This document shows positions 1-64,000 of a stretch of 64,000 nt of DNA, piece by piece. Position numbers and translations under genes: made by a program. Within the stretch, counting starts at the first letter, position 1, and the number at the start of each line of letters is the position of its first letter. The notes beneath the pieces are model-generated. The model made no database searches. It was not told the origin of the DNA and was given only the letters and a program-made list of their open reading frames with translations. The stretch comes from Paecilomyces variotii (Eukaryota), in assembly GCA_004022145.1 (NCBI GenBank), contig RCNU01000007.1. One strand, written 5' to 3'.

Positions 1-1056
1 GCCTCCAACGACCTCTAACCCCCAAAGCGGCTAGCGCAGCGGAGAGGGACGGAGACGGTATCGATACGACACAGTACGATACCGGTAATTTCAGCAGATC
101 GCAGAGAGCAACAAGAGCGCCGTCGATTGCCGTAGGATGGCCCTTTTTTCACGCTGGAGATGTCTGTAGAGACTGCACTGTCTGTCTGGATCTCGTCCGC
201 ACGAATGCATGATGAGGATGCTGTGGCCAGCACGGAAACGGCCAGTAGAGTAGGAGTAACGAACAGCAGGATCTACTCTAGTAACGGAGCGGGAGGCGGC
301 TCGTCCTCCTTCGTCTTCGCGCTCCAGTTCCGCGACTCTCTTCTTCTCTCTTTCCAGAGCGCCGCAAGCCAACCAGGAAACGAGAAGCCACCCGCCAACT
401 CCAGGGATTAATTACTACATATACTATAGTTACTTACTATAGTGATAGTTAATTATTTTCTCTCCTGTTTTCTGATCAAATCCCAGCGGCCAGATCGGCC
501 CGTTCGGCGCTTCGGCAGATCCTGCGCGTGCCTCGCGGGAAAAGCGATCGAGCCCCAACCAGCCCAGGACAGGACAAGACAAGACCAGACCAGACCAGAC
601 CCCGACCCATCCACTCAGTCGTCCTGCCTGGAACCCTCTGAGTCTCCCGGACTGTTCGACCGCTGGCCATCGGCTGGCTTGCGTTGCTGGCTTTGGTATG
701 TCTTCTTTGTGATCGCTGTCGCTGGCCTTCTGCCCCTGTTGTCCTTTCGTCTGTCGTTGCGCCCGCCCGGATGGCGATGGCTTTTGCTCAGGCGCAACAT
801 GCGCCCGTCGCGATGACCTCCCCTCGCCCCCCCCAAACAAGTTCCTGTGCATTGCTTTCCTGCCCCGATCATGTCATGATGCGAGCTTGTCGCGATGGGA
901 TCGCGTTCGATGGAGCTCCCAACCTGGCTGACCTTGATGCGCTGTCTCCCCAGGCCCTTCCAATGATGCTATCGTAGCATTCGCCTCGCCATATTTGTGC
1001 CCACCAACGTGTCTCCGTGTGAGCAGACACGCATAACTATCTCCTAGAAAGAAACA

Positions 1057-3647: not shown

Positions 3648-4713
3648 CTGTACTCTACTAGGGCTGAGCTGGAGTATTAAGGAGGGGGAGGGGGATTACA
3701 TGGATCTAGCAGGCGTGTTCTTACTTTTTTTTTTTTTGAACGTTTTCTTTTGTCGAAGGCATCTATCTGCCCGACATGGTACATAGGATATAGGAGCTGT
3801 GGGCTATCAGTCCGTCGTTGTTTTTTTTTAAAGCATCTCCCTATTTTCCCTCAGGGCTGTCCTCATGTATTAGCTGATCTACTCAATTCTTGGTGGCGCA
3901 AGTTAAGTTCCAATTGGGGAATCTGAGTCTTTTGCCTCCCATATCTGCATGGGAGATTGAAATCCATGAAGATGTTATATTGAGATGAGAACGAGAACGA
4001 TTTGTTTTTGTTACACTTGAGTTGTAAGCCTTGTGGATAACTAGTTCAAGGTAGTTAATATAGAGACAGATGACTTATAATAATATAATACAGTAACTAC
4101 CAATCCAAGCATCGTATCCCACCACGGGTAAGATAATTAACATGTCTATTTTTATTATCTCTATCCTTAGAATCTCTACAACGATCAGCCCAAGCAAGGA
4201 AAGAAAGAAGGAAAGAAATCTTTCTAATTTTATTCTCCAATTCTCATTCCCATTCAGACACATAATCCACATAATCCACATCATCATCATCATTCTTCTG
4301 TTCGTCCCCCCTACTACAACTAGTAATGAGACATTAACTCATATTCGACACATAAATCGATGATGATGATAATAAACCACCCAGAAAAAAAAAATCAATC
4401 AAACAAACAAACAAAAAAACAAAGAGGTATATACGGCATCAATAGACCATAGATAGTATAGATAGCATGGGCATGGCATCAGCCAGGATAAATAAATAAT
4501 AGGGGGAAATGTGAAACGCAAAAACGCCAAATGTAACCCACGAAACCAGCATATACATGTATGTGTGTGTATATATATAGATATATATCGAGAGCTTTGG
4601 GGGCTTGCGCATTCATCAAGTCTATATGCTTATGCTGATGCCTTTCTTTCTTTTGGAGGAATAAATGATAATCATGAGCGTTACCGAAGGATTTTCCTTC
4701 GGAAGAGGGGCGC

Positions 4714-4736
4714 GGGGGGGGGGGGGGGGGGGGGGG
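4714..4736 (+). repeat. G23 homopolymer downstream of the MFS gene
   Basis: Direct reading. Confidence 0.9.
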
Positions 4737-4800
4737 CGAGGATTATGTATGATTAATGAGAGGAAGAAGGGGGGAAAAAAAGGTTGGGATCTTTTTTTCT

Positions 4801-6620
4801 TTAAAACTTCGGCGAGAACTTGCTCAAAGAGCGAATCTTCTTTCCGTAGAAGAAGAACAAGATCGGAATCGGGATCATCGCGACGGTGATAAAGCCCAAC
4901 ACGCTAGACGCCCAGTTCACGCCGAGATTGTGATACATCTGCACAGCGAAGAGGGGGAAGCCACCACCAACGCAACTCCGGACGAGCGTGTTGGCGGCAA
5001 TGGCGGAGTTTGCGAACATGAGGTATACGTCGATGATGTAGTTGAGGCCCTGCATGAAGATGACGAGGATGCCGCATCCGATGGGCACGCCGGCGAGAAC
5101 TTGTGGGAACCAGTGGACGTGAGGGCTGGATGTCCATCCGAACCAGAACAGACCGGCGGGGAGGATGACGGAGGCGATCATCATGGGGACGAGACGTTCT
5201 TCGGGGACGACGCGGCCGTGTTTCTCGAGTTTGCGCGCGAAACGGGTCTTGGTGATGATGGAGATTAAGGCGACGCCGATGAAGACTCCGATTAGGATGC
5301 CGAGGAATGGCAGTGCGGCTACACCGGGGTGTTTCCAGCCGCGGACTTCCTGGAAAGAGACGGGGTAGGCTTCGAAGAAGAGGTAGAGGATACCGTAGAT
5401 CAGGGCGAGGTAGATGGTGATGCAGACTAGGATGGGTTCGAGGAACAGCATCTGGAACGGCCGCAGGATGTATTTCCAGAGGATATCTTTGAAGGTTGGA
5501 CGGTGCTCGTCCAGGAAGGAGTGGTAGGCCCAGTTCTTTGTCTCATGGCGAAGACGAGCGGCGCGGCGCTGAAGCAGGATTGGTGCGTAGGTCTCTGGCA
5601 CGATGATCAAGGCGATGAGGCCGAAGAAAGCAGATGCGATGAGGGTGATCCAGGCTGTCCATCGCCATCCTAGGTGGGAGCTCACGATGAAACCACCCCT
5701 GTTCCACTGTTTAGTTATCTGTTCCAAGAGGGAGGATGAAAGACAAGATAGAATAACGGTGAAAGATAACTTACACTATAGGACCGGCCGTAGGGCCTCC
5801 AAAAGTGGCTGCTGAGAAGAAGGCAACAGCAACACCTCGGTCAACTGGGTCCCAGAAATCCGCGAGAGCACCTCCAATGACTGCCAGCGGTGCACAGCCA
5901 AAGACTCCCACGAAGAATCGACACACCATGATCGTCTGGAGGTTCTGAGCGACGGCAACGGGAATCTGGAAGATGGCGAAGACAGCATATCCGAAGAACA
6001 GTGGTGGCATACGCCCGTACAGCTCAGACATAGGACCCCAGATCAGAGGACCGACGGCAAATCCCTGTTGAGAATTAATTAGTTCGTATTCTAGGTCTGA
6101 ATCATGATATCAATCAAAGCCATTGTTGAACTGTATCACTTACAAACACCACCAGACTCGTTCCCAGCGTCGTGACTTCGGTGGACACACCGAATTCCTC
6201 CGCCGTCACCAGGGTTGCTTCACTGAACACACTACTGGCGAACGTGATCCAGACGGTCAACGACGACAGCGTCATGGTGTAGACCCATTTCTTCCACTTG
6301 GGCCAATTCTGCGGGTTCTCGGGGTCGTCTGGACCATCCCATTCCACCAGGTTTGGATCCTTCTTGGGGGCATTCTCATCCTCCAGGGGCGCTTCTCCTC
6401 CGCGCTCGATATCTTCCTCTTCCTTTTCGATATCGCCAACCTCGTCTCGGGCTACCCGCTCCTCCGGTTGCGGGCTCTCCATGGCGCGCAGCTCGTTCGT
6501 CTTCTCTTCTTGCAGGGTATCACCGGACGACGGATGGTGAGGGACTCTCTCATGATCGATGCTCAGTCGTGTTGGTGTGGTCGCGTTTGAATCGAATGTG
6601 GTCTGCTTGTCTGGGTCCAT
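4801..6620 (-). CDS. MFS drug:H+ antiporter (DHA1 family, Tpo/Flr1-like), 4 exons
   Basis: WDGPDDPENPQNW N-terminal motif, SELYGR, WRW, PETY, PEERL and ASAIAANTLVRS motifs across ORFs 6114-6641, 5771-6031 and 4801-5727. ATG at 6620. Confidence 0.92.
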
Positions 6621-9349
6621 GCTGTCGCGCGTTTGACGCAATGCGCCGGGGAGCCTCGGCCGGTCAGGACGGATGACGGGGTGACTAGAGTATAATCGAT
6701 ACTCTCAAAAGTCTCTAAACAAGCTGTGGCTTCTTCCCAGTGACGCAATTTACACTGAACACGGGCTCGGATATAGACGTTCCTGGAAGCGTTACTGGGA
6801 TCGCCGGGACAGTTCGACCTTGGAAGTTCCAGCAGCCTACGAGATGAGATCTTCTACACCTGATATATAGGATCTGAAAAAACGGACTTTAGCGCAGTGG
6901 ATCCGATCCATTCTGTTATCTCCATGCGTACGACCAAAAAGTTTTCCACATCGAGGAGGCCCAGCTGAGAGCTCTGTTGCTCTAGGCCTCTAGGCCAATG
7001 GGCCCGTGGAGAAGCCGGCAACGGCGCCATGAGCCAGGCACATAAGACGGAGGATCATGACAAGAAGCGCCGAAGGGGGGGGATCATTGACCATCAGGAT
7101 TTCTAAGCGTAACTATGCTTTATGCTCTCTTTTGGGAGCATATCTAGTAGTTGAACGCAGATGGCGCCATCACTGAACACTAGGATCGCCGCGGTTAGAA
7201 CCTAAAGTCCGACATCCTCCGTCCTGTCATCATTGGCGACTGCACGACGGTTGCGTTCGCCAGACATCGTTCTTTAGGGCTTCACGGCGACGCTCGCAGA
7301 CGGCCCGCTGCAAGTGGTACTTGGACCACTTGGTACGTACTCTTAAGTCGAGAGTCTACAGACGCCACCATATCCCCACTTGGTGCTGATTCCTCAATAG
7401 GCCAAAGTACGACTTACGTGCTCTACTCCGTAGTCTCTATGAGGATAACAAGACTGTCATTCCCTATGATTATATCAGGTAAGTAGTTTGCTTTTCAGCA
7501 ACCATCAGGGACTCCGGAACCCAGAAGCAGCATCCTCGCTAACCATCACTTTCTACCATAGTTCTATCTAGTATTCTAGAATCTACAGAGTTTTTGCTGC
7601 AAGCGGTGACGGAAGCTTGGGCCAACTGGCAGCCCGAGGAATGGAAGAGACCAACACCAACAAGGATTGACGATAGTAATAACAATCCCAGATCTCCCGC
7701 TCGGAGTGCGCGAAGCCGAGTATTTCTCCGTCCGACTGGTCAGAATCCATGGCACTGGTCTCGGCCAAGAAATTGAGTCTTCGCGTCGGGGTCGGTGGTC
7801 GGCACTTGTGCTGCTCTCGGACTCCGAGGTACCGGAAGTAGATCATTATGGCATTATTATTATTATTATAGAGCGAAGACAGGATCTGATCTGATCTGAT
7901 CTGATATTTGGGTATCTATTATTATTACCAGGATGACTGAGACTTTTCGTCCTTTCGTCGCTCGCGTGGCAAATGAGCAGGATCTCCCCGAGTCAGTTGA
8001 GTCATTGCATGCCCGGATGACATGTTTGATAGGTCATAGGATTGCCTGGTCATCTTCTCCTCTGAGACATGATCTGAATAATATGGTAGTTGAGTAATAA
8101 TGATGAATAACGAATATATTAAATAATAACTAATAATAATATTATTACTATTTTATTATTTTATTTTCATCGTCTTTTTTTCCTGTTTCTGGCGTCATTA
8201 ATATTCTTCTTCCATGCTTTTCCCTCGGTCGATCGGCGCCTCGAATGTTCCGAGACCCACTTTTTCGCTCTTGGGAACCTCCGGGGACCGCTAACCGTAT
8301 CAGGTATGGCACCAACACGTGGTCATGGCCATATTCTAGAATCTAGAGTATCTTAGGTACCAGGTAGGTATGTAAGTGGTCTAGAGTAAGTTGCGAACGG
8401 TATCATACTCTATTATAGTAGTCAGTATCCTTGTGGATACTCGCGATTAGGCATGTGGAGTAGATACTAACTATCTATCTATCTCGTAGCGGATTACAGA
8501 ATACTCACGTGCATACAGGATCTTGAAGAGAAGGAATATGGTAGTCAAGTTAATTATTATGCAGATCGGCTGAACTGATCCGGATATATATCGGGAGAAT
8601 TTCCGCCTTCCTGCTTGAGCGATTCATTATAGCATACTCTACTTATTAATATTACTTTGCTGATTCTAGGGTTGTGTTACAGGCGATGAACGTAATCGCT
8701 TGCTGCGGTCCCATGTCTTTTGGTTTAGAGTAGGGCGACTTGAGCAATAATGAATCGTGGGGTTCCTTTTTTGGTGTAACTAGCCCCTAGATAAATCTAT
8801 GGAGGTCAGGACATTATTGAGAAAGGTAGTTTTAGGTGCCTGGAGGAGCCTTGCTAATTCAGTGAAGTATATAAACAAAGGAGTTAGCCATGTCTGTATA
8901 AGAGTCAACAAAATAGAAAAGCCTAAAGTTATTTATTATTAACTAATTGACGAAGTATGCAGTTGCAAGAGACCTTTAATCACGCAGCGTAAAACAGAAG
9001 ATGCATGTTACTTACAGACTTGAATGCGTACCATAAATATTCTGCTCTATCAAAAAGTTTCTGCCTGAGGCGCCCGCACAACACGCCCGACGCGTCGACG
9101 GGCGGCAGTTCAGTGGGCGGTAAGCGCCCGCGCTTGATTCGAATCGATTATTGCTCGTGCCTCCAACTCCCCATTTATCTTCATCTTCGGTCGCCGTCGT
9201 GACTTTCATCCCAATTCCAATCTCCCTTGGCGCGCAGCTTCTTCCACGGCCTCAATTCCTTCACGCATCGCCACCGCCTGCGCCCCAACATCGAGCATCT
9301 CATGCTGTGCTGATCTGGTCCACGTTCACTTCCCCGCCCTTCTCCCACG

Positions 9350-49588: not shown

Positions 49589-49870
49589 ATGGATTTCGAG
49601 CTTCGAGAAAATCATCTCACCGCTGCCGCGGCTACTGCATCCACATACCATTTGACTCATCGATATGATGCTCAGGATGGAATATCGAATGAAACGCTAA
49701 CTGCTAGGCAAGAAGAGAATGATACAAACGAACAGAGCCATGGAATCAGCTACGACAACAATGAACGGACTCTCAATGATTCCTATTTCCAGCAAAGTGA
49801 CCATACCAGCCAACAACAACGACAGCTTCCTCGAGCGGATGGGGGGAAAGATGCCTGGTTATTTCTCGCA
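49589..49870 (+). pseudogene. 5' fragment of an MFS monocarboxylate transporter (Mch/MCT-like), truncated
   Basis: Hydrophilic N terminus then LPRADGGKDAWLFLA, the motif preceding TM1 of fungal MCT-like MFS proteins. Similarity is lost immediately and a stop follows at 49892-49894; no remainder recognised in the window. Confidence 0.72.
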
Positions 49871-49896
49871 TATGCCATCTCCCCGGTGACTTAAAT

Positions 49897-50445
49897 CTAA
49901 ACGCGAATGAGAATCGGTAAAATCTGCTGGATATCCGTACTCCCGTCAGCTGAGAGCTGACGCAGGGATTCCCGGTCTTCAAGAATGTGATCGATTGTTT
50001 CCGCCCTGCCGGAGGCATGGTAGATTTGAGCTATCGCCGCGTGGGTCTCGAGGAGAACACGACTAGGCAGCTGAGTCCTATTGCCGTGCGGCTTAGAAAA
50101 ACGAACATATTCTGCGCGGCCATGGGAACGCTTTCTGAGGGCGTTCCGCGGGAAACGAGGGTACGTCTTGATCTTGTAGGTGTGCTCTTCATTCTGGTTT
50201 AGTGAGCAGAAATTCTTTTTGTATAATTTTAGGTTTATACTAACCGTGCTTTCAAAAGCCAGCTTCAGTTTGCCCCATAGCTCGTTGAGAATGGGGATCA
50301 TAATCATCGTATTTGTCGGTTCGTTGATCAGATCTGGTTTTATGACGTCCTCGAGGTCGGGAAACAAGGCAGAAAGCGTAGTCCATATATTAACGACATC
50401 GTTTTCCTGAGTATTAAGATTAGAAAGTTTGGAATAATAAGAGAT

Positions 50446-50525
<80 letters not shown>

Positions 50526-51194
50526 AAAGAAGACGTACCTGCTCACGGGTCTCGTACACTCCAAGGGCAAATGGTATTATATGAGATAGGTTGGTAGGAT
50601 ACATGCCATCATCGTACTCCTCGTCCGAGATGTCGGGGAACTTATCCCGGCACTCTGCCGCGTAATGATCAGTAACAACACAGCGATAATTGTCTCTTTC
50701 AAGACAGATCTTTTTTAAGTTCTGCTGATCGTTCTGAGAAGAAGATTCTACCATTTCTTGGGCGACATCGTCTGGGCGTCCAAAAGGAGAGGGTGTTACA
50801 GTCTGGTTCTGACCTCCGCAGGCTCTCACTAGAATTTTTCAGTGTTAGCCATATTATAGAATTATATGTGAACAATAATTACTATAAAATAAAGGATGAA
50901 CTTACTTGGAGCTAGAACCGCGGTAAAAAGATGGTGTGATAGCTCCTTAAGAGAAGTCATCTCAGGATGCTCGATGATGTATTGACATATTGTCCGTTTT
51001 CCAAGAGCCGGCAAGAAATCGATAAAGCTTTGGATGGTCTTCGCAGTGCAGTCTGTACCATAAGAAAGACAATACTGAGAAAGGATCTCGCGTGCTTCTT
51101 TTTCTTCTTCGCAGACACTGGCTGGATCCGATGATAGAGAGGAGATGGAATCGCTTAAATCACTTAGTTCTTGTGTTAGCTGAGACAAAGTCAT
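49897..51194 (-). CDS. Fungal HNH-family endonuclease (HNH_2-like); exons 51194-50906, 50828-50539, 50406-50245, 50193-49897
   Basis: LKKICLERDNYRCVVT...LSHIIPFAL...INEPTNTMIM...KLAFE...LPSRVLLETHAAIAQIYHASG. Three GT-AG introns splice into one open frame. Confidence 0.85.
50446..50527. repeat. (AAAG)n tetranucleotide microsatellite in HNH intron 2
   Basis: About 20 perfect AAAG units read directly. Confidence 0.95.
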
Positions 51195-51404
51195 CGTGAA
51201 GGCTTGGCTGCAGATAGAGAATAGGGTCTGATGGTTCTAATTGATCGAAAAGCTAGTTGTCGAAGCGAGGCTGGATGAGTTAGTTGGAATAAAGGCAGTT
51301 AAGAGTGTCCAAGGCGAGAACTTTGGTGAGGTCAGAGAGAAGTGTTCCGCGATCCCGTTCTTGCTTACCTATTTAGGTAGCTACCATACCGGTCCTTGGT
51401 TGGG

Positions 51405-51845
51405 ACTTTAAATGGTAAGAACTCGGTCGAAAATCGGTAATTCAACAAAAAGGGTATACTACGAAGTCGACATGTTTAACAGAAGTATTTAAAGAACATT
51501 AAAATTATTTAACGTTGTGTACTTCTAACGTTAGTTATGTAAAAGGTATACGAATCGTCTTATAATTGAAAGGTAAACGAATTCGGAACGTTACCAAAAG
51601 GTTCCTAACGGTTCAGCAAATTCAATGTTCGGACTAGTTTTCGAACGTTTAATCTGTTGCTTAATGGTTTATTCTGTAAACGTTACTACTTCAAAAGGTA
51701 TTTGGAAGGTTAAGAAACTGTTATAAACGTTTTGCATTAGTAACATTAATTTTGCTAACCGTCGAAGAATCGATTTAAATTGTCAACGCTGCTAATAGAA
51801 AACGGTATACGGTCGGAAACGCTAGACAGATTATTACGTAAAAAC
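51405..51845. repeat. Degenerate array of AACGTT/AAAGGT/AACGGT motifs (putative transposon subterminal region)
   Basis: Over 20 related hexamers, e.g. 51511, 51527, 51542, 51569, 51587, 51597, 51607, 51644, 51663, 51679, 51694, 51726, 51801. Confidence 0.6.
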
Positions 51846-52091
51846 CGAGGAATGTCAATATTTAAACATGCTCTCCAGGTCAAACCATTGCAGGATCGCA
51901 CGTTCATCTTGTATCATATTCAGATAACCATACATCTCTAAGATATAACGTCCCATTGTCCTATTCGAATGTTGCATCATTATGTGACATTCGACCCGTC
52001 ATCCTATGTAATTCGCGCCACTATCGTCATTAGCTCGAAGTCTCAAGATATTTCCACTATGCACTTACCTTATTGACAGTGCGTGTCCTAT

Positions 52092-52163
52092 GTACCTCTC
52101 GCGTACCTCTCGCGTACCTATCGCGTACCTATCGCGTACCTATCGCGTACCTATCGCGTACCT
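52092..52163. repeat. 11-bp tandem repeat GTACCT(C/A)TCGC x6.5
   Basis: Two GTACCTCTCGC, four GTACCTATCGC and a partial GTACCT, read directly. Confidence 0.97.
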
Positions 52164-53598
52164 TGTTAAAGCCGAGTTAATTCCCAAAAAAAGTAATAGA
52201 TCTATATCTTATGGTGTTGAGAAATTGAGCGACTAAGGGTTGGCCTTAGCAAAACATTAAGGTTACTTAGTCTGTATAGTACTTTAAGTTAGTTAGAGGT
52301 AGTCCGGCAATGTGCGTGCGTAAGAATTTCCTTAAAAGATAGGTATATATAACTTATAGTCGGCAAGTTAAATATTGTTTATATTCATAACATTTTGCGA
52401 GTATTAAAACATATATTAAGCTAATATTATTTATCTTATAGTTTAAAATTATATTATTAGAAGTGTAATTATTATTAAGGTTAAGTATCCTAATGCCGCA
52501 ACTAGTTAGTTATATACCTAGGTATCTTAATATTATAACTAGTTATTATAATAGGTAGGATATTAATATAACTCTTAAAAAATCAAAGGGGAAACTTAGG
52601 ATTATATATACTCTCTAATTTATCTTAGGAGCTAGTAATCTTTAATATCTCTAATATAGGGTCAGTGTTTCTATCTATAAGGGATACCTCTAAAAAAGCT
52701 ATTTAGTATTATATTTATTACTAATATCTAGATTAAATAGCGCTTAATTTAAAAAGCTATATATATTAGCCTATTATTAGAGATATATAGCCTATCTTTT
52801 ATAATCTATTTGCTTTAAATAAGTTTAGCATATAATTATTAGATTAACTTTAAAGACTAACTTTAAGGATTAATTTTTAATATACTTATCTTAAGACTTC
52901 TATAATTCTAGATAGTAAGTATTATTATCTCTTTAATTTACCTTTTTAATAAAACGGGAATATATTTATATCTTTTATCTAGGATCCTTTTATTATTATT
53001 TTAGTATTAGTATTTAATCTATATTAAATAATTAATTAATACTTATTTTATATAATCTGTATCTTATAATAAGACTTTAACTTATATTTATAGGTATTAT
53101 TACTATTATTATATAAAAATTAAGTAAAAGAAGAGAGAGCACGCAATTTTAATATATTTTTAAGGAGATAATATATTTTTAAAGAAGTAATATCCTTTTA
53201 ATAAAGGAATAGCAGTTATTATCTTATATTAAAATAAAGGGAAGATAGATAAAATAGAATTAGTTACTTAAAGTATTTAAATAACTATATAATATTAGAT
53301 AGATAAGAGAAAAAAAAAAGCTATATTAAGATAAAGAAAAGAGACTAAAAAGAAGGGCTTAGAGAGTAAATTATAAGAGATAAAGAACTGCTATAGAGTA
53401 AGATAAAACCTTATTTATTTAATACTTTATATTATATAGTATTTATTATAAAAATATAAATATTAATAGCTAGCTAAGAGTCTCCCCTTTAATCTTATTA
53501 TTTATATATATAAATTAGTAAGACTATTAATACTACTATAAAAGTCTAATATATTAAATCTAATATATTCTAATTCTTAATATAACTCTATATAACTG

Positions 53599-56500
53599 CT
53601 AAAAAAAGTCTATTTCTTATATATAATTTAATAATTTATCTCTATTAAGCCTAAGAATATTAATTTTATATCCTTAATATTATAATACTTAAGTAATAGG
53701 AATTATATATAGCCTTATTATTTTTATAAAAGCGAGCCCTATAATATCTATATCCTTATTATCTATATTATAGATAGATAAGGCTAGAAGCTTATTTATT
53801 ATAGGATAAGAGGTTTTAAGATATATTATTCTAAAAAAGATCTTTAGGTATTTTTCTTATAGTTTATATATAAATATCTTATCTATTCTCTTAATTCTCT
53901 TTTCTTAAAATCTAATATAATTACTATAAGATAAATATATTTAGAATAAATTATCTCTATAATAAACTTTTTAATTAGATATTATTCTTAATTAAACTTA
54001 AAAACTATAATAAACTTATTTAGGGAAATAATTAATCTTTTAAAACTATTTTAATAGAACTAATTTGCGTTCTATAATTATATAATTCCTATAATTTAAG
54101 CTATATATACTATAAAGAGCCTTTAAAAATAGATTAAGAATAGGGAGAAGAGATAAATAAAAAAAGATACCTATCTCTTTAAAGATAAGCTTTAAGGGGA
54201 TTAAATTCTAGATTTATACTATTTTGTATTTTACTATATCTAAATTAAACATATTAATATTATCTCTATTCTCTTTAACTAGATATATTTATAAAAGATT
54301 TATAAAGAATTATAGATAATTATTATAAAGATTTATTATATACTAAATAAGCTTAGATTTAATATTATTATATATCTTTTAAAGAAGTAAAAGTAATATT
54401 CTTTAAAAACTTTCTTATTATAATAATATCTTTTTAATATCGCAGTAATTTATTTAACGCATAAGCTATTTATAAAACCTAAGGAATTAAATTAGATTAA
54501 TTTATATATATATATTAATTCGGAGTTATTAATAGGCTATTTACCTATGTTTATCTTCGCTAATTAATACATTACAGTTATTAGGGACAGCATATTCCTT
54601 TGCTTAATTAACATAATGTAATCTAATGTGTATATTTGGCCGACACTTAATAGCGTAATATTCTTGGCTTTTCTTTATTTCCTATAGGCGACTTATCCAA
54701 ATAGAAACCTCTAAGCCGGCAGGTAATGGGCTTCGTGATATTCGTAAGACAGAATTAGATCGCGATTTAGCCGGGCGAATTTCTTCTGCAGCAACAGCTG
54801 CGATCTCAAGTAGTGTTTATATCCCCTTACGCCCTTCAATGATAATTTCTCTTAGTTTGTGTCTATCGTACTTACTCATCGATCGCTATGCAAGCACTGA
54901 ATTACTCTTGGCTATCGACGCGAAAATACCAGTGACGAGGCTAACGGGCGAATGAAGTAGATATATCTTGTCGATAAACTGCTTTAATGCTTTTAAGTAA
55001 GAAGAGTCAAACTAGTTTTTATTAAGACAACAATGAAGAAGCAAAGGAATAATAATCGATGCGCGTGCATGTTCTTGTAGTTGATAGCTCTCGAGATAGG
55101 TTACCGGAGATTATAAGCGACCCTATCCTGAAGGAAACTAGAACTTTCGAAGAGCAGACAAATATTCGATTTTCCTATTTGGTGATAATATTGTATTAAC
55201 TAAAAGAGAATGTGCTGTCTTTAATATCCCTGCATATTCTGAATAACACAGGTCTAATAGGAAATAAGTTATAAGATTAAGACTGGGTGCTATCTGCAAT
55301 AATAGCGATTTTTACTTTGCGATACTATATTTAGATAATAGCTTCTTATAAGCAATTAAACTACACATTTCTGTAATTATTTAAATATTAATAGTTTAAT
55401 AGTAATAGCGACTAAAAAGCGTAGTGTTATAGTCTAAGTTTAAGCAATCTTTCTCAGTCGCAAGATATTAACAATATCTACAATTTGCTGTCTGTCTTTT
55501 AATACCGGCATTATCCTATTACTGTAGCATATCCCTAAGAAATATATGCACATATACTACTAGCTTAGTCTTTTCTCCGCGTATCTTAGTCTTAATACTA
55601 TAATCTAATTGTAAAAGCCTTTTTAGGGATAATATTATATTAGTAAAATTACTTCTATGCGGTCCTAATATAATAGAATAGATATTATTATATTTAGCCC
55701 TTTCTACTGCATTGAGATAAGCTAGGATTATATAGATTCTTATTAGACTTTAGTATATATTGCGGTATAATCTAAAGCTATTAATAAAGAGCTAATATAG
55801 AAAAGATAAACATTTCCTAGCAAAAAAGGTATCTACTAGTTGCTTCCTTCTATAGGTTGCAATCTCTAGTTCGTCGCGTAGAGGTGTCGTTAGACAAAGA
55901 GGGCGAACTGAGGTAATATCTTGATTAACTACTTGTCGAATAAGATATCTATTAGTTAGTTTAATAATACGACTCGAAAACCCATTTTAGAATTAATAGT
56001 CGAAAAGGACTATTTTTTCCCGATAGAGAATATCTAATTCCGATAAATACAGGTATCTATTCTCATAGATTATTAATTTATTTTCCTTAAATAGTAGACC
56101 CGTGCTTTTAAGTAATATATGTAAATAATTAGTTATAGCCTTATAGTTAATAAGTTTCTGAAGCTGTAATTTTATACTCCCCTTGCAATTAGTATTAGAC
56201 CTATAATCTTTTCCCGCAGCTATAATACGCCTAATATAAGCTTATAAGTTAGACGATTAGCACTTAAGTCTACAGGTTATATTAGAATATTTATAGCGAA
56301 CGATATTAGAAGAAAATATTAGTTAGTTATTAGCAGAATATCTACTAAATTCGCCTAATATTAATTATATAGATCCTGCCTATAATAAAGACTCCTATAA
56401 TTCTGCAGAATAATCTATAAAGTAAGCTATTTTTATATATATCTTTAAGAGATCTTAAGACTTAATAAAAGCGATAAAAAGCGCAATAAAGTCTAAAAAA

Positions 56501-57300
56501 ATATATCTATTATATTAAAGTTTTTATAAGTTATTTTTTTATAGTTAATAATATAGAAAGTTATATAAATATAATTATAATTTTTATTTTCCTTACTAAT
56601 AAAAAAGGGAATTACCCTTTAATATAAACTTTTAGAATTATTAGGGACTTTAAAAGTCTATTAATCTTAAATATATCTTATAGTATATTTAGAATTTCTA
56701 GGAGAGTAATATATTAATAATATAAGATACCTATATTCTTATATTATAAATTAAGAAATAATATAAAACTCTGTAATATTTCTTAAAACTAAATTTATAG
56801 AATTTCTTTAAAACTATCGAGATCTTCTCTAATTAAAGATAGACCTAGTAAGGGTAATATAAATAATAATATATCTAATACTTGCTTAAAAGCAGGCTTA
56901 GGTTTAATAGAATTCTTTAATTATTTATCCTTAAAAGCAATATCTATTATAGTATTATTAAGCAAATATAATAAATTTTTATAAGATAAATTTATATTAA
57001 TATTCTATATATCTTTATATATATTTAAATTGCCAGCCTATAGATTAGTTAGTTTTTATTATTTACTTAAATAGCTATAAGGTATAATAGATATTAATCT
57101 TATTATTAAAAGATTTTTCTAATTATACTAATATTATTCTGCTTATTTTTATAGACTATTCCCTTTCTATTAAAAATATTAGCTTATCTTTATATATTCT
57201 TTACTAATAATATAATCTATCTAATACTGGACTTAGATCTAGATACTCTTAGTCTTATATTCTACTGCTAGCAGTATATTACATATACTTTTTTAAAGAG
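53599..57300 (-). mobile_element. RIP-inactivated large DDE transposase gene, CACTA/EnSpm (CMC)-like; 5' end approximate
   Basis: Reverse-strand translation with TAG/TAA read as W/Q/R and C>T/G>A reversal gives LWxExxGISR (about 56720), ELWxSxSWAGSVRSTSGEF (about 56380), LFIDGFGLYRNMYxSLMGIY...TLGPHGSNF (55790-55650), GDMPQQQDNAGIKRQTANCGCRxC (55536-55465), FPSGWGRLQSP (about 55120), RPNxHIGLHY...NCNVLIGEDKHR (54645-54548, then a GT intron) and a C-terminal CTWEIDFF-stop at 53599. Confidence 0.75.
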
Positions 57301-60300
57301 TAAAATCTATACCTAGATATTTTAAACTTAAGGAAATAAATATTAAAAATAAAATATTGCTAATAATCTATAGAATATATTAATCTAATAAAAAATATTA
57401 TTAATTATATAAGCGAATATTTAGTAAGACTTAAAGTAAAATAATCTTATATTCTAATAAGGTAAAAGTATAAAAGTAAGGTTATACTATGTTATAAAAT
57501 AGCAGTTAGGACTAGCAGTTTCTTATATAACTAAGATTTTGCTCTGAGGAAATCTTTAAGAATAATTTTATTATAGTAAAATTAGGCGGCTTAAAAAAAC
57601 TACTTCCTAGGCCTTTATAAAAAAAAACTATTGCCTTAACTAAGAATATATAAATATACTTTATATTTATTATATGTGCCAATATTTTTTTTCTTTAAAT
57701 ATTATTAGCCTTTTAAGCTATTAGATTAGTCTAAGAATTTTATTTAAACCTATTCTTTTTAATTAGTTATAAGCCTAGGTTTATAGTAACTTAGGAGAAA
57801 TAGCTATATAGCAAAAATTATTTTATTTTAAATATTTAAGTTTAAACTAATAATAATAAGCTATCCTTATATAAGAGGACCTATAATAAAACTGCTCTAG
57901 TATTATATTAGATATTAAACCTAATAGAAGTTAGATTTTATTAAAGATTAGAAAATTAATTTATTATTATTATATCCTTAATAAAAGATAAGAATAGTAA
58001 GAGGGGTAAATTAATTTTTATTTTTTTAAGGGAGAATTATAAGATATAGTTTTTATATATAAAAAAGTAGCTCTTTAATAAGAATTGCTAGAATACTATT
58101 AAATTATTTAAAAAAAAAAGCTAAGATAAGAAAATGTTTAGAAAGACTAATATAATTATATAATATTAAATTATTAAATGCCTCTTAAATAGTAATTAGG
58201 AGAATTTTATAGATTTATCTAGTATAGAGAATTTATAGAAGGGATTATAAATAAAATATAAATAATCTCTTTTTACCTAGAAATATTAGCTTATTTAATA
58301 ATATATATAATTTTAAATAACCCCCGGACAGATAATTTTAAATACTTAGGAATAACTAGACTTAATAGGGAAGAAAATTAAGATATATAATAAAAATATA
58401 TCTTCTTTAGCTGAATTTAAAGCTAAGATTTAATAATTATTTTTAGCCTTATTTAAAAAATATGCTATTACTAGAATAGTAATTAATATATAAATAAGCC
58501 TAAATATAGATAAAATCTTAAGTATTTTAGAGGAGGTAAAAGCCTAACTTTAAATAAAGCTAATTATTATATTCTTTATTAAAAATAAATAAACCTTAAT
58601 TAAATATTATATCTGTAAGAAAGATTATTATATTAAAGACTGCCTATTTTTACCTATTATTTAGAAAAATATAAGAGATAGCTAAAGATAAAGAAAAGAG
58701 TTTTTTAAATAAATATTTAATAGTCCTATTATCTAAGATAAGAAGATAATAGACTTAATTATTAAAATCTATAAAAAGGTTTAATCCTTAAAGAATAAAA
58801 GATTAAAGGATAGAAAGTATAAGGTATATAAAATAAAAGAAATTTTAGACTCTAAGAAGAGCTAATCTTAATTAAAATCTTTAACTTTAGTTATTTTTAA
58901 TAATTAAGTCTTATATAAGATTATCTATTTTTTAAAAGATATTATTAATAAGAATTTATCTTAATAATATATAAATAATAATATTAGTTTATATATAATT
59001 AATAAGAGCTATTGCTTTAAAGAACTATTAATTTAGATTTAATAAAGATATATTTATATAGGTAGAGAGATCTTATATTTAGAATATATAAAAATAGCTA
59101 TTTTAAGAAATAAGAATAAGAAGGGGTTAGACCTAGAAAATATACTATTTATACTAAATCTTAGGGTAAATCTTTTATTAATTAAGATATTCTACTAATA
59201 ATTAAATATATACAGGTATTTTAATAAAAGAATAATATTTATATTAAATAAGTTAGATAAGGTTATAATTTAAGGTATTATTAAATATAGAGTCTATATT
59301 ATTAAGAGGGTCTTCTTAGACTAAATGCTAAAGTTATAATATATGCCTATTGTATTATTATTTATTAAAAATGCCTTTAATACTATAATTATAAACTAAG
59401 AAAAAAGATTTTTTTAAAATAAAATTATTCCTTTATTTTATTAAAATAAAATTAAGAAGAAGTATTAACTATAGTATAGGAGAATTAGCTATCTTAGATT
59501 TAAAAAGGTTAGAAATTTATATAACTTAATTATATTAAAGAAATCTATTAAAGTAATAATAGATTATTAGTATATAATATATATTATAGCTAATATTAGA
59601 AATAAAAAAGAGACTATTAATATATAAAAGGCTGGCATTCTTAAACTTATCTATATAGATATATATAGTTAAATGCTAAAGTTTAAAGATAAATATATCT
59701 ACTTTTTAATAATTATAGATAACTTCTTAAGAAAAATATAGGTATTTCTAATAAAAGCTAAATCTAATACTGCCCTTATCTTAAATAAATAAAAAAGGGA
59801 GATTAAGATAATAATAGGTCTCTAAATTCTTAGTATATAATTAGATAATATATTAAAATTTAAGAATCTTTTTAAGACTTAAAGGAAATAGTTTAGTATT
59901 TACTATAAATTAATAGTTTTATATATATTAATATAAAATAAAGCTATAGAATAAGTATATTAGACTATTAAAAAAAAATAAGAGCTATACTTAAAAATTT
60001 AAACCTTCTAGTTAAATTATAGGTAGAGATAGTTTAAACTAATATATATATTAGAAATAGAGTATTAAATAGACTAATAGTTAATAGGATTTAAATATTT
60101 TTAGAAGAAGCCTTTATTAGAGCTAAGCTGTTAATTAATTACTTAAAAATATAAAGATATTAAATAGTATTATATATAAACCTAGAATCTTTACTATAAA
60201 ATATATAAAGGGATAAATTAATAGATTAAAGTAGAATCTATATTTTTATAAAATATATTAAAAAAATAGATAAATAATAAAAAGTTTAGGCTTTAAATAT

Positions 60301-61436
60301 AAAAAAGATTATTAAGACTTATTAAGCTAAATTTTTTAAGAATAAACTAAGAGGAGATTTAAACCTTAAGATTCCCTAAAGATTATTATCAAATATAATA
60401 TTAATAAAAAACTTAAGGAGTTAATTAGCAATCTAATATATTATTTTAAGTATATATATATTCTTAAATAAAAAGAAAAATAATATTAATAATTAGGAGG
60501 AGAGCTATAAGAAAGTTTTAGTTTTTCCTTAAAAAGAAAAAGAAGTTTTTTATTAAAAAAAAATTAAAATATTTTATTATAATAAAATTATAGAATAAAA
60601 AGAGATACTTAATTATTCTTACTTTAATAATCTAAATAATTATAAAGATTTATAGATAAATCCCTTATTCTTATTAAGTAGATAAGTTATATCTTATATA
60701 GAGATCTTCTATATAGCAAAGTATAAAAAAAAAGAAATTAAGTTATTAGATAATAAATAAGATACTAAAAAATTATATTAAGTAATATTTATATTAAATC
60801 TTCTATCTTTAGATATTAATATAGATTAGGAGAAATATATAAAATAAGTATTAAATACTATAATAGCAATATATATAGTAAAAAAATATATTCTAATCTT
60901 AAACTTATATTATGCTATAATTAATAATCCTATTTAAGATAAATTATAGCGGAGTATATTTAAAGCTAAAATAGATATACTCTAAATAAATAAAATTTTT
61001 AAAGTAATTATATTATTATTAGGAGCTAATATTATAATTAGCTATTAGATATTAGCTATAAAGTATAATTTAAATAGTTCTTTTTAAAAGCTTAAGATAT
61101 ATTTTATTATCTAAGGGTTTACTTAAAAATATAGTATTAATTTTAAGTATATCTTTACTTCTATCTTATAATATAATATATTATAAGTATTTCTAGCTAT
61201 TATTATAATAAAAGATTATAAATATTATATTATAGATATTAATAATACCTTTATAAAATTAATATTAAAGGAGAAGATTTATATAATACTTTTATTAGGA
61301 ATAAATATATTATTAGAAATAGTATTAAAAGTTCTTTAATCTTTATATAGTTTAAAGCAGGCTATAAGAGATTAGAATTAAACTTATATAAAAATATTCT
61401 AAAAAATAGGTTTTATATAAACTAATATTAATCTAT

Positions 61437-61773
61437 TATTATAGGAAGATGTATTAAAACTTAATATAGAGTCTTTAAGCAAGTAAGTATTAAGAAGGAA
61501 AAGAAAGATATTTAGCTTTAGAGCTTAGAATAGAGCTAGAGGAAAAGCTCTAGCTATAAACTAATATAATAAACCAATAATAATCTAATACTAAACTAAT
61601 ACTAAATAATAATAAAAAAGAAAAGCTAATTATTTTATTTTAAATAACTAAAAAATATCTCCTTACTACTTCTTCTCTTCTCTTACTTTACTTATAAACT
61701 TTTTAAAAACTTTAAATAAAAGTATATAATCTCTTAATTAATTACATTCTTTATACTAATTCTTCTTACTATA
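61437..61773 (-). repeat. 3' LTR (337 bp) of nested element
   Basis: Colinear with 63625-63959; differences mostly G/A and C/T transitions. Confidence 0.9.
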
Positions 61774-63624
61774 TAGCCTCCCCTTTTTTAAGAATAAATA
61801 CCTCTATTTACCTTCCTTAATTATTATAGTCTATACTATCTCCTCCTTTTAATATTATAAATTATTCTTAAAGTAAGAATGCTCTAGTTTCTAATATTAT
61901 ATATATCTTAAAACCCCTAACTTATAAAGCTAAATTCCTTTCCTTTATAAATAATCTTAGACTAATAATATATCTTACTTTAATATAAAATATAACTCTA
62001 CTTTAATTTCTAAATAATCTTAGTTTAACTAATTAAATATTGCTCTATTTATAACTATAACTCTATTTACTTAAATATTAAAAGGCCTAGATTCTTCTTA
62101 GTTAAATCTTATCTTATCTTATTCCTTATAATTAAAATAGCAGATATTATTAAAATTTATTCTCTAATTCTCTAATATTAGCTAATATAAATTATTAATA
62201 AAGATTATTTTTCCCTATTTAAATATAATATCTCTTAAGCTTATAATTTCCTTAAACTTATCTCTAATAATTAGTCTAATCCTTAAGATTATAAAACTCT
62301 AGCCTATTTCTCTCTTAAGGATTATAATCTCTATATTTAATACTCTTAGCTTATATTCCCTAAAATATTAGACCTATAATCTATATTTATTATAACTATA
62401 TAGTACTAACTAGATTAAATAAACCTAGATATTTTATGCAATAACCTTCTAAAAAATATTTTTAAATAAGTTCTTAAGCTCTATTAATCTTTTACTTTCT
62501 TTTTTATAATAAAGGGCTATTTTTACTTCTATAATAATATATTATAGCATCTCTTCTACTAGTTTCTTTTTAAAGGATATAATTTAAAAAACCCTATTTA
62601 CTTTCTAATAGTTAAAATTCTCCCTTATTATAATATCTAACTAGATATATTAGTCCTATATCTTATTTAAAGTAAAGTCTTCTTTACTTAGATTAAAATA
62701 TTTTCTGTCTTTATATTTAGATTTAGGATTCTAATATAGCTTAATATTCTTAATTATACTCCTTTAAGTCCTTAAAGCTATTATATTTTATATTTTTAAA
62801 CCTTTCTAGCTATTAGATATTATATTTCCTTTAATACTTATTATAATAAATATACTCTTATTTAATTGCTTCTGCCAGTTTTAAGTAATTCTTTTCTTTA
62901 TATTTAAGTTAAATATTTATCTATAATAATATTAATAGACTATAATAATCTATAAACTATTTAATTTTTTTCTCTTCTAGGAGTTAATTTATCTTATATA
63001 GCCTTTTAAAAAGCCTTAAATAATAAGTAATATTATTCTCTTTAAAATATAGTGCCTTAAGATTTCTAGGCATTAGCATCTATAAAGCTAATATAACCTA
63101 GATTAGCTATACTATTAGTAGTCCTATATTTTTAAATACCTAAGTTATTTATATCTTTAGACCTAATAATATTAAAAAACTAAGAGTCCTTCTATTTTAA
63201 CTAATATTAAAAAAATTAGTGCTTTTCTCTATATTTTTTTAAAAGAATAGTAATAAAGATAATAATAAAAAATTCTTCTACTTTTTAATAAATAATTCTT
63301 ATTTAATAATTTTTTATTTTTTTTAAATTTTTACTTCTCTTTTATACTTGCTAAGCTTTTCCTTATATTTAATAGTCTTTTCTTTTTCTTATTATTAATA
63401 TATATTTTTACCTTATATTATATTTACTGTCTCTGCTAATTTAAAAAATATATTTATCTCTTTCTATTTATAGTAGTAATCTTCCTTAATTATTTTATTT
63501 ATTTTTTTATTACTTCTTATCCCTTTTTTTAACTTTAGCCTTAACCTTAGTTTTTAATTCTCCTTTCTCCTTTCTCCCTTATTTCTATTTAATATTTTAA
63601 TACCCCCTATATTTAGCTCTAATT

Positions 63625-63959
63625 TATTATAAGAAAATATATTAAAACTTAATATAGAGTCTTTAAGTGAGTAAATATTAAAAAAGAAGAGAAAGATATT
63701 TAGCTTTAGAGCTTAAAGTAGAGCTAAAAAAAAAGCTTTAGCTATAAACTAATATAATAAACTAATAATAATTTAATACTAAACTAATACTAAATAATAA
63801 TAAAAAAAAAGCTAATTATTTTATTCTGAATAATTAAAAGGTATCTCCTTACTACTTCTCCCCCTCTCTTGCTTTACTTATAGACTTTTTAAAGACTTTA
63901 AATAAAAGTACATAACCTCTTAACTAATTACATTCTTTATACTAATTCTCCCTACTATA
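63625..63959 (-). repeat. 5' LTR (335 bp) of nested element
   Basis: Colinear with 61437-61773; termini TATTA...TATA consistent with RIPed TG...CA. Confidence 0.9.
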
Positions 63960-64000
63960 CTATACTTATTATAATATTTAAAAAAAGAGATCTTATTTTT

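What the first reader, a model, noticed from the sequence alone, without database searches (positions are those of the whole stretch)
49870..57490. Candidate large CACTA/CMC-like DNA transposon associated with an HNH nuclease (non-Starship cargo element?)
Seen: a host transporter gene cut at about 49870, then in co-oriented minus-strand order a large DDE transposase, a RIPed segment, two motif arrays and an intact HNH nuclease gene ending next to the cut. Known: large cargo-carrying fungal elements are mostly described as Starships with a tyrosine-recombinase captain, and none is recognisable here; CACTA elements have subterminal repeat arrays and capture genes. Inference: the block may be the left arm of a cargo-bearing DDE element whose nuclease could act in drive, toxicity or homing. 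Alternative: the element ends at about 51385-51400 and the HNH gene arrived separately.
Basis: partly seen in the sequence, partly recalled or inferred. Interest (0 to 1): 0.8.

Follow-up and report, generated by a model that had tools for sequence, protein, structure and literature searches.

The report
Dead transposon beside an HNH gene
A transporter gene of the mould Paecilomyces variotii is split by an old insertion that holds one intact HNH-type gene next to a mutation-killed DNA transposon, and the transposon appears to end before the HNH gene, so this is ordinary rather than a new cargo-carrying element.

Summary
An MFS monocarboxylate-transporter gene stops at 49870 (residue 89 of 483). 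It is followed on the minus strand by an intact four-exon HNH_2-like gene (49897-51194), an AACGTT cluster, an 11-bp tandem array and a RIP-wrecked transposase of about 1100 aa (53659-56785; 53 in-frame stops, one frame).

The cargo reading is not supported. Two intact metagenomic relatives of the transposase are ordinary 4.9 and 6.6 kb elements with termini CTACCAT...ATGGTAG. The same terminus (10 of 11 bases) sits at 51381 in the right orientation, 186 bp upstream of the HNH start codon. The motif arrays therefore lie in the transposon's own 3' subterminal region, and HNH lies outside it. None of 49 relative loci carries an HNH homologue, though only 5 have enough flank to show one.

HNH does belong to the same strain-polymorphic insertion. 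HNH and a 5'-truncated transporter have adjacent accession numbers in 10 of 11 records, and 6 records have an intact transporter with no HNH record adjacent by accession. Joint arrival by flank transduction is therefore not excluded. The right junction lies beyond the window.

Verdict: a new member of known kinds, of low to moderate interest.

The parts
49589..49870 (+). 5' fragment of the host MFS monocarboxylate-transporter gene (residues 1-89 of 483-488). The frame runs on into foreign DNA for 7 codons and then stops.
   Evidence: tblastn of P0157, 93% identity, E 3e-51. The rest of the protein is absent from the window. Intact 483-488 aa forms are seen in other strains.
49870..49871 (.). 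Left junction of the strain-polymorphic insertion.
   Evidence: Homology to the intact transporter ends at 49870. Contigs of runs X17, X19 and X3 bridge this point unchanged.
49897..51194 (-). Intact HNH_2-like gene of 345 aa. Exons: 51194-50906, 50828-50539, 50406-50245, 50193-49897.
   Evidence: The spliced product equals P0158 exactly. HNH_2 scores 18.4 bits against a cut-off of 21, while relatives pass. The C-terminus is conserved in distant relatives, and the last His of the motif is Asn. There is no RIP signature.
50446..50527 (.). (AAGA)20.5 microsatellite inside intron 2 of the HNH gene.
   Evidence: Contigs of all four laid runs break here. A shorter form is implied by the read-through protein P0002.
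51195..51380 (-). 186-bp upstream region of the HNH gene, lying between its ATG and the transposon terminus.
   Evidence: Coordinates.
51381..51426 (-). 3' terminus (terminal inverted repeat) of the RIPed transposon. It begins CTACCATACCG on the + strand.
   Evidence: 10 of 11 bases match the 46-nt TIR terminus of relative L013, and 7 of 7 match the L008 terminus. The orientation is right for a minus-strand element. RIP indices shift at about 51400.
51511..51731 (.). Subterminal cluster of six AACGTT sites (first motif array).
   Evidence: 6 of the window's 9 sites lie here. The 3' subterminal regions of L013 and L008 are also enriched in AACGT, at 10-15 per kb against 1 per kb in host DNA.
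52092..52163 (.). 11-bp tandem array, 6.5 copies (second motif array), inside the transposon's 3' region.
   Evidence: One unit fewer in run X20.
52250..53658 (-). Heavily RIPed 3' non-coding part of the transposon (GC about 18%).
   Evidence: No Pfam family in any frame read with X.
53659..56785 (-). RIP-inactivated transposase remnant. It has 53 in-frame stops (40 TAA, 13 TAG) in 949 codons of a single frame. The first catalytic-block Asp is now Asn.
   Evidence: (914 hits).
56786..57502 (-). Presumed N-terminal coding and 5' end region of the transposon. The right end is only approximate (57490-57520).
   Evidence: The N-terminal residues of relatives project to about 56930-57200. The X19 contig departs from the window at 57490, the X17 contig ends at 57517, and depth rises 10-100 fold beyond that point. 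The RIP-tolerant match to the terminus at 57493-57502 is weak (and reading).
57503..64000 (.). Further RIPed, high-copy repeat DNA. It is not part of the transposon and runs off the window.
   Evidence: Summed contig depth is 170-7400 against 33-36 for host DNA. GC is 14-21%. There are 0 Pfam families in six frames.

Best explanation
The block is the left part of an old, gene-poor insertion that splits the monocarboxylate-transporter gene in some Paecilomyces variotii strains. It holds two separate things.

(a) A compact 1.5-kb module with one intact gene for a divergent fungal HNH_2-family protein.

(b) Directly upstream of that gene, a roughly 6.1-kb cut-and-paste DNA transposon of the CACTA/EnSpm-Plavaka (CMCT) clade, at 51381 to about 57500 on the minus strand.

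The transposon has its own CTACCAT terminus, AACGTT-rich subterminal repeats and a transposase of about 1100 aa. Repeat-induced point mutation has destroyed that transposase. Further RIPed repeats follow to the end of the window.

The HNH gene lies outside the transposon's terminal repeat, so it is a neighbour and not internal cargo.

Shown here: the cut, the gene model, the transposase homology, the RIP signature, the terminus match, and the presence/absence polymorphism.

Inferred: that the AACGTT sites are transposase-binding subterminal repeats; that the transposon landed next to, or in the upstream region of, an HNH-bearing segment that was already there; and that RIP leaks from the transposon into the HNH alleles of some strains.
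For: Terminus:
- L013 has a 46-nt TIR (85-130 and 4960-5005) bounding a 4921-bp element. L008 has a CTACCATAAA TIR bounding 6.6 kb around an intact 1190-aa ORF.
- Window 51381 reads CTACCATACCG in the orientation expected for the 3' end of the minus-strand transposase.

Subterminal motifs:
- 6 of 9 AACGTT sites lie just inside that end.
- The 3' subterminal regions of the relatives show the same enrichment.

RIP:
- RIP indices change at about 51400. For 49897-51194, TpA/ApT is 0.80 and (CpA+TpG)/(ApC+GpT) is 1.11. For 51400-51860 they are 1.44 and 0.49.
- The transposase has 53 TAA/TAG stops and no frameshift across 949 codons.
- RIP with a CpA bias is experimentally active in this species (PMC6300479, passages read).

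Linkage elsewhere: the HNH profile hits 0 of 49 loci that encode relatives of the transposase. The positive control on the window gave 6e-126.

Polymorphism:
- 10 of 11 HNH accessions are numerically adjacent to a 5'-truncated transporter.
- The 6 accessions with an intact 483-488 aa transporter have no adjacent HNH.

HNH alleles: amino-acid differences from the window allele are mostly single G>A or C>T changes. The counts are 12 of 17 for P0004, 5 of 5 for P0005 and 8 of 17 for P0003, with 0-2 transversions.
Against: - The 10-mer CTACCATRCC also occurs once by chance inside HNH exon 4 (50014-50023, coding the conserved IYHA). A chance match at 51381 is therefore not negligible.
- Outside the first 11 bases, the window terminus and the L013 TIR are only about 65% alike. 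blastn finds no longer similarity.
- The partner terminus near 57.5 kb cannot be shown through the RIP damage.
- No clear target-site duplication is seen, either here or in L013 and L008.
- Only 5 of the 49 loci have at least 3.8 kb of downstream flank, so the no-linkage test is weak.
- The HNH-transposon junction is identical in all 3 runs that cover it. HNH is found only in insertion-bearing strains. Joint arrival is therefore not excluded.
Confidence: 0.6

Rival explanations
1. Flank transduction or a composite element. The transposon once sat beside the HNH gene elsewhere. An aberrant transposition used its 5' end and a pseudo-terminus beyond HNH, and carried HNH into the transporter gene as one unit (49871 to about 57500, or larger).
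For: - HNH is co-oriented with the transposon and lies immediately downstream of its 3' end, 186 bp away.
- HNH occurs only with the insertion: 10 of 11 accessions are adjacent to the truncated transporter, and none is adjacent to the 6 intact ones.
- The HNH-transposon junction is the same in 3 of 3 runs that cover it.
- ATGCCAT at 49872-49878 matches CTACCAT at 5 of 7 bases, one base inside the cut. This is my reading, and by my estimate such a match would arise by chance at a few percent.
Against: - The HNH module shows no RIP although the transposon is heavily RIPed, so the copies that triggered RIP did not include HNH.
- 0 of 49 related loci link the two genes.
- No inverted partner of the 49871 end exists in the window.
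- The X19 contig runs on for 6449 bases beyond 57490. The longest Logan contig on record that holds the transporter's 3' ORF is 7056 bases, so that 13.4-kb contig probably does not reach the transporter. This inference is weak.
Confidence: 0.17
2. The HNH module is itself the invader. A free-standing, homing-endonuclease-like or otherwise selfish HNH gene inserted into the transporter exon, and transposons later piled up in its upstream region.
For: - The module is compact: a 186-bp upstream region, and a stop codon 26 bp from the junction.
- Distribution is patchy. Only 8 proteins were found at E<=1e-5 by the word-indexed search. They are 4 forms of this gene, one 44% paralogue in P. variotii, and proteins from Histoplasma (2) and Elaphomyces. 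An Aspergillus fumigatus relative appeared.
- The gene is strictly associated with the disrupted allele.
Against: - The gene occurs at one locus only in P. variotii records. Its paralogue is only 44% identical.
- The last metal-ligand His of the HNH motif is Asn here, and the Pfam score is below the cut-off.
- Allele differences look like unconstrained RIP-type drift.
- Fungal HNH_2 proteins form large ordinary families with no shown mobility.
Confidence: 0.08
3. A degenerate remnant of a giant element (a Starship or similar). Its captain and other cargo were destroyed by RIP, and HNH is the last surviving gene.
For: - The insertion is larger than 14.1 kb and runs off the window.
- P. variotii is known to carry Starships (PMC10104507, seen in the search listing and abstract start only).
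- The structure to the right of 57490 differs between strains.
Against: - No Pfam family, including no tyrosine-recombinase captain, was found in six frames of 57490-64000 or of 51195-54500. RIP may, however, hide such domains.
- HNH and the transporter's 3' part are consecutive annotated genes in 10 records, so no other intact gene lies between them.
- The DNA beyond 57.5 kb is a high-copy repeat.
Confidence: 0.08

Closest known systems
[quoted passage not shown]
   Same: - A large DDE-type transposase with a C-x2-C motif between the second Asp block and the Glu block.
- Sub-threshold Plavaka PF18759 hits in 3 of 8 relatives.
- Short terminal inverted repeats, subterminal short-motif arrays, and an element size of 5-7 kb.
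- The clade's features were taken from passages of PMC12730594.
   Different: - The termini are CTACCAT...ATGGTAG. They are not CACTA/CAC..GTG, nor the PlavakaA TGT..ACA or PlavakaB CATCA..TGATG termini given in PMC12730594.
- No Pfam model reaches its cut-off.
- A 2-5 bp target duplication could not be shown.
- This copy is dead (RIP).
DNA transposons with accessory or captured genes (TET/JBP-bearing KDZ, Plavaka and EnSpm elements of fungi; gene capture by plant CACTA elements)
   Same: A non-transposase gene lies co-oriented next to a CMCT-type transposase. Accessory genes inside such elements are documented for TET/JBP (PMC12730594, passages). Capture by plant CACTA elements is from my recall.
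   Different: Here the extra gene lies outside the terminal repeat. It is absent from the 49 related loci and escaped the RIP that hit the element.
Starship giant transposons
   Same: A strain-polymorphic insertion that interrupts a host gene, in a species known for Starships (search listing).
   Different: No tyrosine-recombinase captain was detected. Only one intact gene lies in the insertion, and the rest is RIPed repeat DNA.
Fungal HNH_2 (PF13391) domain proteins
   Same: - Relatives at 29-44% identity pass the HNH_2 cut-off.
- The ESM Atlas feature and structure neighbours are HNH_2 clusters of Asco- and Basidiomycota (score 0.97, TM 0.73).
- The Cys, His-Ile-Ile-Pro and Asn...Asn positions are invariant.
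   Different: The window protein scores 18.4 bits, under the cut-off of 21. It has Asn in place of the last His of the motif. No member of the family has a tested function that I saw.

Membership tests
CACTA/EnSpm (CMC) superfamily | DDE transposase with the conserved Asp, Asp and Glu blocks. | tested here: inconclusive
   The family consensus shows FIDGFGLY, GDMPQQQ and D-x-AHSE blocks with invariant D and E columns. The window copy reads FINSFRLY, RDMLQ-stop-stop and DLCYSEYAG. That these are the catalytic residues is inferred by analogy and was not tested.
CACTA/EnSpm (CMC) superfamily | [quoted passage not shown] | tested here: inconclusive
   C-R-x-C is invariant in relatives and is CRYC in the window. 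I could not identify an H(3-4)H motif with confidence.
CACTA/EnSpm (CMC) superfamily | Termini 5'-CACTA / CAC..GTG-3' (CA..TG in most of the CMCT clade). | tested here: not met
   The L013 and L008 termini and window 51381 all read CTACCAT...ATGGTAG.
CACTA/EnSpm (CMC) superfamily | 2-5 bp target-site duplication. | tested here: inconclusive
   The flanks of L013 (GTA/ACT) and L008 (AGT/AGC) do not match. In the window, TAG sits left of 51381 and CAG right of 57502. These would agree only if one copy was RIPed and if 57502 is the true end (my reading).
CACTA/EnSpm (CMC) superfamily | Subterminal arrays of short repeats. | tested here: met
   Six AACGTT sites lie in 221 bp just inside the terminus. 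The 3' ends of the relatives show similar enrichment.
Plavaka (Pfam PF18759) | Score at or above the Pfam gathering cut-off (26.3 bits). | tested here: not met
   The window remnant gave 0 families. Relatives gave 19.9-23.1 bits in 3 of 8 and nothing in 5 of 8.
Starship | Tyrosine-recombinase captain (DUF3435) at one end. | tested here: not met
   No Pfam family in any frame of 51195-54500, 56400-57600 or 57490-64000. No annotated gene lies between HNH and the transporter's 3' part in 10 records. The far end of the insertion is outside the window.
Starship | A large element bounded by defined direct or inverted repeats at a target site. | not testable with these tools
   The right junction lies beyond 64000, and no whole genome is held.
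HNH_2 (Pfam PF13391) / His-Me finger nucleases | Pfam score at or above 21 bits. | tested here: not met
   P0158 scores 18.4 bits (E 0.002). Relatives P0174, P0175, P0177 and P0006 score 28.7-38.4 bits.
HNH_2 (Pfam PF13391) / His-Me finger nucleases | Catalytic His, structural Asn, and a second metal-ligand His or Asn. | tested here: inconclusive
   H179, N221 and N225 are invariant. The last position is His in 4 relatives, and Asn in the three P. variotii alleles and in Elaphomyces. That H-N-N variants can be active is my recall. Activity was not tested.
RIP-mutated repeat | TpA/ApT above about 0.89, (CpA+TpG)/(ApC+GpT) below about 1.03, and C>T/G>A stops. The thresholds are recalled. | tested here: met
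   52250-64000 gives 1.2-1.6 and 0.0-0.5. All 53 stops are TAA or TAG. Strain differences are almost all transitions. RIP is active in this species (PMC6300479).

The most novel reading that the evidence does not exclude
The HNH_2 gene entered the transporter gene together with the CMCT-clade transposon, as a transduced 3' flank or as part of a composite unit. That would be a natural case of whole-gene capture and relocation by a fungal CACTA-like DDE element. Less likely, the HNH protein itself promoted the insertion.
Probability: 0.17. Interest if true: 0.6.

Novelty: new member of a known kind. Interest (0 to 1): 0.3.

Why it matters
- The finding removes a candidate non-Starship cargo element. 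What looked like one large cargo-bearing transposon is better read as an ordinary RIP-killed DNA transposon sitting beside a lineage-restricted HNH_2 gene.
- The 369-376 aa "monocarboxylate transporter" proteins annotated in several P. variotii genomes are 5'-truncated remnants of a gene that is intact (483-488 aa) in other strains.
- A large Pezizomycotina transposase family has no Pfam model above threshold. It gave 914 representative proteins at E<=1e-3. It has CTACCAT termini and AACGTT-rich subterminal repeats.
- The HNH alleles show G>A/C>T-biased changes. This may be a small natural example of RIP leaking from a transposon into a neighbouring single-copy gene.

Tried and rejected
- No whole genome is held for the window. 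The right junction, the target duplication and other genomic copies could therefore not be examined.
- The search of earlier findings returned nothing in four look-ups, by place, by sequence (twice) and by words.
- The first HNH search used an intron-containing reading. Low-complexity words from the microsatellite crowded the candidate list. I repeated it with the spliced protein.
- Pfam on X-read frames found 0 families for the transposase remnant, for 51195-54500 and 56400-57600, and for 57490-64000. The identity of the high-copy repeats remains unknown.
- I first read the AACGTT cluster as a mere RIP residue, because CpG observed/expected was 2.2. I gave this up when intact relatives showed the same enrichment.
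- A search for an inverted partner of the 49871 end found only chance-level matches. So did RIP-tolerant searches for the partner of the 51381 terminus.
- blastn-short of 51200-52400 against the 49 loci gave only 13-16-mers.
- The AlphaFold2 model of the HNH protein, from an 8-row alignment, was poor (mean pLDDT 41.3, pTM 0.32). I made no fold search.
- Limits of the read laying:
  - None of the four runs showed an empty site.
  - X20 had no cover left of 50470, and X3 had thin cover right of 50837. Neither is used as evidence.
- The N-terminal 25 aa of the truncated transporter models are not encoded in the window. By codon logic they may partly be an out-of-frame reading of transporter exon 2. 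That was too uncertain to use.
- PMC11623301 holds none of the terms monocarboxylate, HNH, CACTA or Plavaka.


Full report
**Setting**

The window is fungal. Its first 49.8 kb carries ordinary core genes, including SNF5, PDS5, pinin, cofilin, MRP-L46, CAF1, an SBF-like transporter, DUF1349, an FAD monooxygenase and a ceramidase. GC is about 50% there. From about 52250 to the end, GC falls to 14-25%, with strong RIP indices.

Proteins from the region are identical or nearly identical to named NCBI proteins of Paecilomyces variotii. RIP with a CpA bias has been shown experimentally in this species. AT-rich tracts of about 20% GC are described as a genome feature (PMC6300479, passages read).

**The cut transporter**

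The intact 483-aa MFS monocarboxylate transporter P0157 matches window 49589-49870 over residues 1-89 (93% identity, E 3e-51). It matches nowhere else in the window.

The protein cluster holds two kinds of member:
- intact 483-488 aa forms, under 6 NCBI accessions;
- 369-395 aa forms, under 11 accessions, which lack the first ~132 residues and start with a foreign peptide.

The site is therefore polymorphic, and an empty allele exists. Contigs of three other sequencing runs (X17, X19, X3) bridge position 49870 exactly as in the window.

**The HNH gene**

Four exons with GT-AG introns reproduce the 345-aa protein P0158 letter for letter. They are 51194-50906, 50828-50539, 50406-50245 and 50193-49897. 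Intron 2 holds an (AAGA)20.5 microsatellite.

The stop codon is 26 bp from the cut. The C-terminus is nevertheless complete, because relatives at 29-50% identity end at the same conserved motif.

On family membership:
- The protein scores 18.4 bits on Pfam HNH_2, under the cut-off of 21. Four relatives score 28.7-38.4 bits.
- The last His of the motif is Asn here and in Elaphomyces, but His in the other four relatives.
- ESM Atlas neighbours are fungal HNH_2 clusters (feature score 0.97, structure TM 0.73).
- My own AlphaFold model was too poor to use (pLDDT 41.3).

The word-indexed search found few relatives. Besides 4 forms of this gene, these were a 44% paralogue at another P. variotii locus, and proteins from Histoplasma (2) and Elaphomyces. 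An Aspergillus fumigatus relative appeared.

**The transposase**

Read with X at stops, the minus strand of 54403-56499 finds 914 proteins at E<=1e-3, and 172 at E<=1e-30. A profile of 37 full-length relatives aligns to 53659-56505 in a single frame (positions 228-1147 of 1149, 612 bits). It also aligns to 56579-56785.

That frame holds 53 stops, all TAA or TAG, in 949 codons, and no frameshift. This is the mark of RIP rather than of slow decay.

Pfam gives nothing above threshold. Three of 8 relatives hit Plavaka at 19.9-23.1 bits against a cut-off of 26.3. The family consensus has FIDGFGLY, GDMPQQQ, C-R-x-C and AHSE blocks. These fit the DDE plus C(2)C layout that PMC12730594 (passages) describes for the EnSpm/Plavaka/Transib (CMCT) clade.

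**Where the transposon ends**

This is the decisive point. A scan of metagenome contigs gave 49 loci (240 kb) that encode relatives of the transposase.

Two of them hold complete elements:
- L013 has a 46-nt inverted repeat, 85% complementary, bounding 4921 bp. It begins CTACCATGCC.
- L008 has the inverted terminus CTACCATAAA bounding 6.6 kb around an intact 1190-aa ORF.

In the window, CTACCATACCG starts at 51381. This matches the L013 terminus at 10 of 11 bases. It lies in the orientation expected for the 3' end of the minus-strand element, 186 bp upstream of the HNH start codon.

Three further observations agree:
- Six of the window's nine AACGTT sites lie just inside this end, at 51511-51731.
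- The 3' subterminal regions of L013 and L008 are enriched in AACGT to a similar degree, at 10-15 per kb against 1 per kb in host DNA.
- RIP indices switch at about 51400.

The 11-bp tandem array at 52092-52163 also lies inside the element. Both "motif arrays" are therefore the transposon's own subterminal furniture, and HNH lies outside the terminal repeat.

There are caveats:
- The same 10-mer occurs once by chance in HNH exon 4.
- The two termini are only about 65% alike beyond the first 11 bases.
- I could show neither a partner terminus nor a target duplication.

The right end is placed at about 57490-57520 on indirect grounds. N-terminal residues of relatives project to 56930-57200. The X19 contig departs from the window at 57490, and the X17 contig ends at 57517. 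Summed depth jumps 10-100 fold beyond that point.

**Linkage of HNH and transposon**

A profile of the HNH family hits 0 of the 49 loci at E<0.1. It finds the window's own gene at 6e-126. Only 5 loci have at least 3.8 kb of downstream flank, and 8 have at least 2.2 kb, so this is weak negative evidence.

Within the species the picture is different:
- HNH accessions sit next to the truncated transporter in 10 of 11 cases. The eleventh has no listed partner.
- None of the 6 intact-transporter accessions has an adjacent HNH.
- The HNH-transposon junction is unchanged in the 3 runs that cover it: X17, X19, and a more diverged X20 contig with a 230-bp inversion at 51487-51716.

HNH and the truncated transporter are consecutive annotated genes. 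No other intact gene therefore lies in the insertion.

HNH thus belongs to the same insertion/deletion polymorphism as the transposon. The order of events is not resolved. The HNH module shows no RIP (TpA/ApT 0.80). This means the copies that triggered RIP of the transposon did not include it.

**A side observation on the HNH alleles**

Amino-acid differences of other strains' HNH proteins from the window allele can mostly be explained by single G>A or C>T changes. The counts are 12 of 17 for P0004, 5 of 5 for P0005 and 8 of 17 (plus 6 reverse transitions) for P0003, with 0-2 transversions.

Between two records (RWQ94653/RWQ94654 and DTO166G4), the HNH proteins differ at 17 of 345 positions. 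The adjacent transporter remnants show one visible difference. This looks like RIP leaking into a neighbour, or relaxed constraint. DNA of the alleles was not available to test it.

**Verdict**

Most likely (about 0.6), this is an ordinary RIP-killed CMCT-clade DNA transposon of about 6.1 kb. It lies next to, and not around, a lineage-restricted HNH_2 gene. Both sit inside an old, otherwise gene-free insertion that disrupts the transporter gene in part of the species.

The rivals are:
- joint arrival by flank transduction (about 0.17);
- an autonomous HNH invader (about 0.08);
- a decayed giant element (about 0.08).

What is missing is the right junction and other genomic copies. Both need whole assemblies that were not available here.

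Noticed in passing
window 49897-51194, compared with proteins P0003, P0004, P0005 and P0001: Allelic amino-acid differences in the HNH gene are strongly biased to single G>A/C>T changes. The counts are 12 of 17, 5 of 5 and 8 of 17, with few transversions. This suggests RIP leakage from the adjacent transposon, or relaxed constraint.
   Followed up: partly
window 50446-50527: An (AAGA)20.5 microsatellite lies inside HNH intron 2. All laid contigs break here, and another strain's read-through protein implies a much shorter array.
   Followed up: partly
window 51487-51716: Run X20 carries this 230-bp stretch of the transposon's subterminal region in inverted orientation. It also has 16-base insertions at 51325 and 51622, and one fewer 11-bp unit at 52110.
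   Followed up: no
window 61436-61773 and 63624-63959: Two direct copies of about 340 bp, 89-90% alike and 2188 bp apart, lie in the RIPed island. They may be LTR-like or a tandem duplication. GC skew flips sign at about 61500, which suggests elements in opposite orientation.
   Followed up: no
window 57490-57520: The X19 contig continues for 6449 bases unlike the window beyond 57490. The window and X17 enter a high-copy repeat instead. The structure to the right of the transposon therefore differs between strains.
   Followed up: partly
proteins P0164, P0165, P0167 and P0168 (not in the window): The 369-376 aa "MFS monocarboxylate transporter" models annotated in several P. variotii genomes are 5'-truncated remnants of the gene split by this insertion. 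One record (P0170) has a different C-terminus and no adjacent HNH accession.
   Followed up: partly
L008:579-1826 (minus strand): The intact 6.6-kb relative holds a second, 415-aa ORF on the opposite strand, between its 5' terminus and the transposase. It is low in complexity and gives only a weak Paf1 hit. It is not an HNH.
   Followed up: partly
window 50014-50023 (minus strand): An exact copy of the transposon terminal 10-mer CTACCATGCC lies inside HNH exon 4, where it encodes the family-conserved IYHA. I judge it a chance match.
   Followed up: yes
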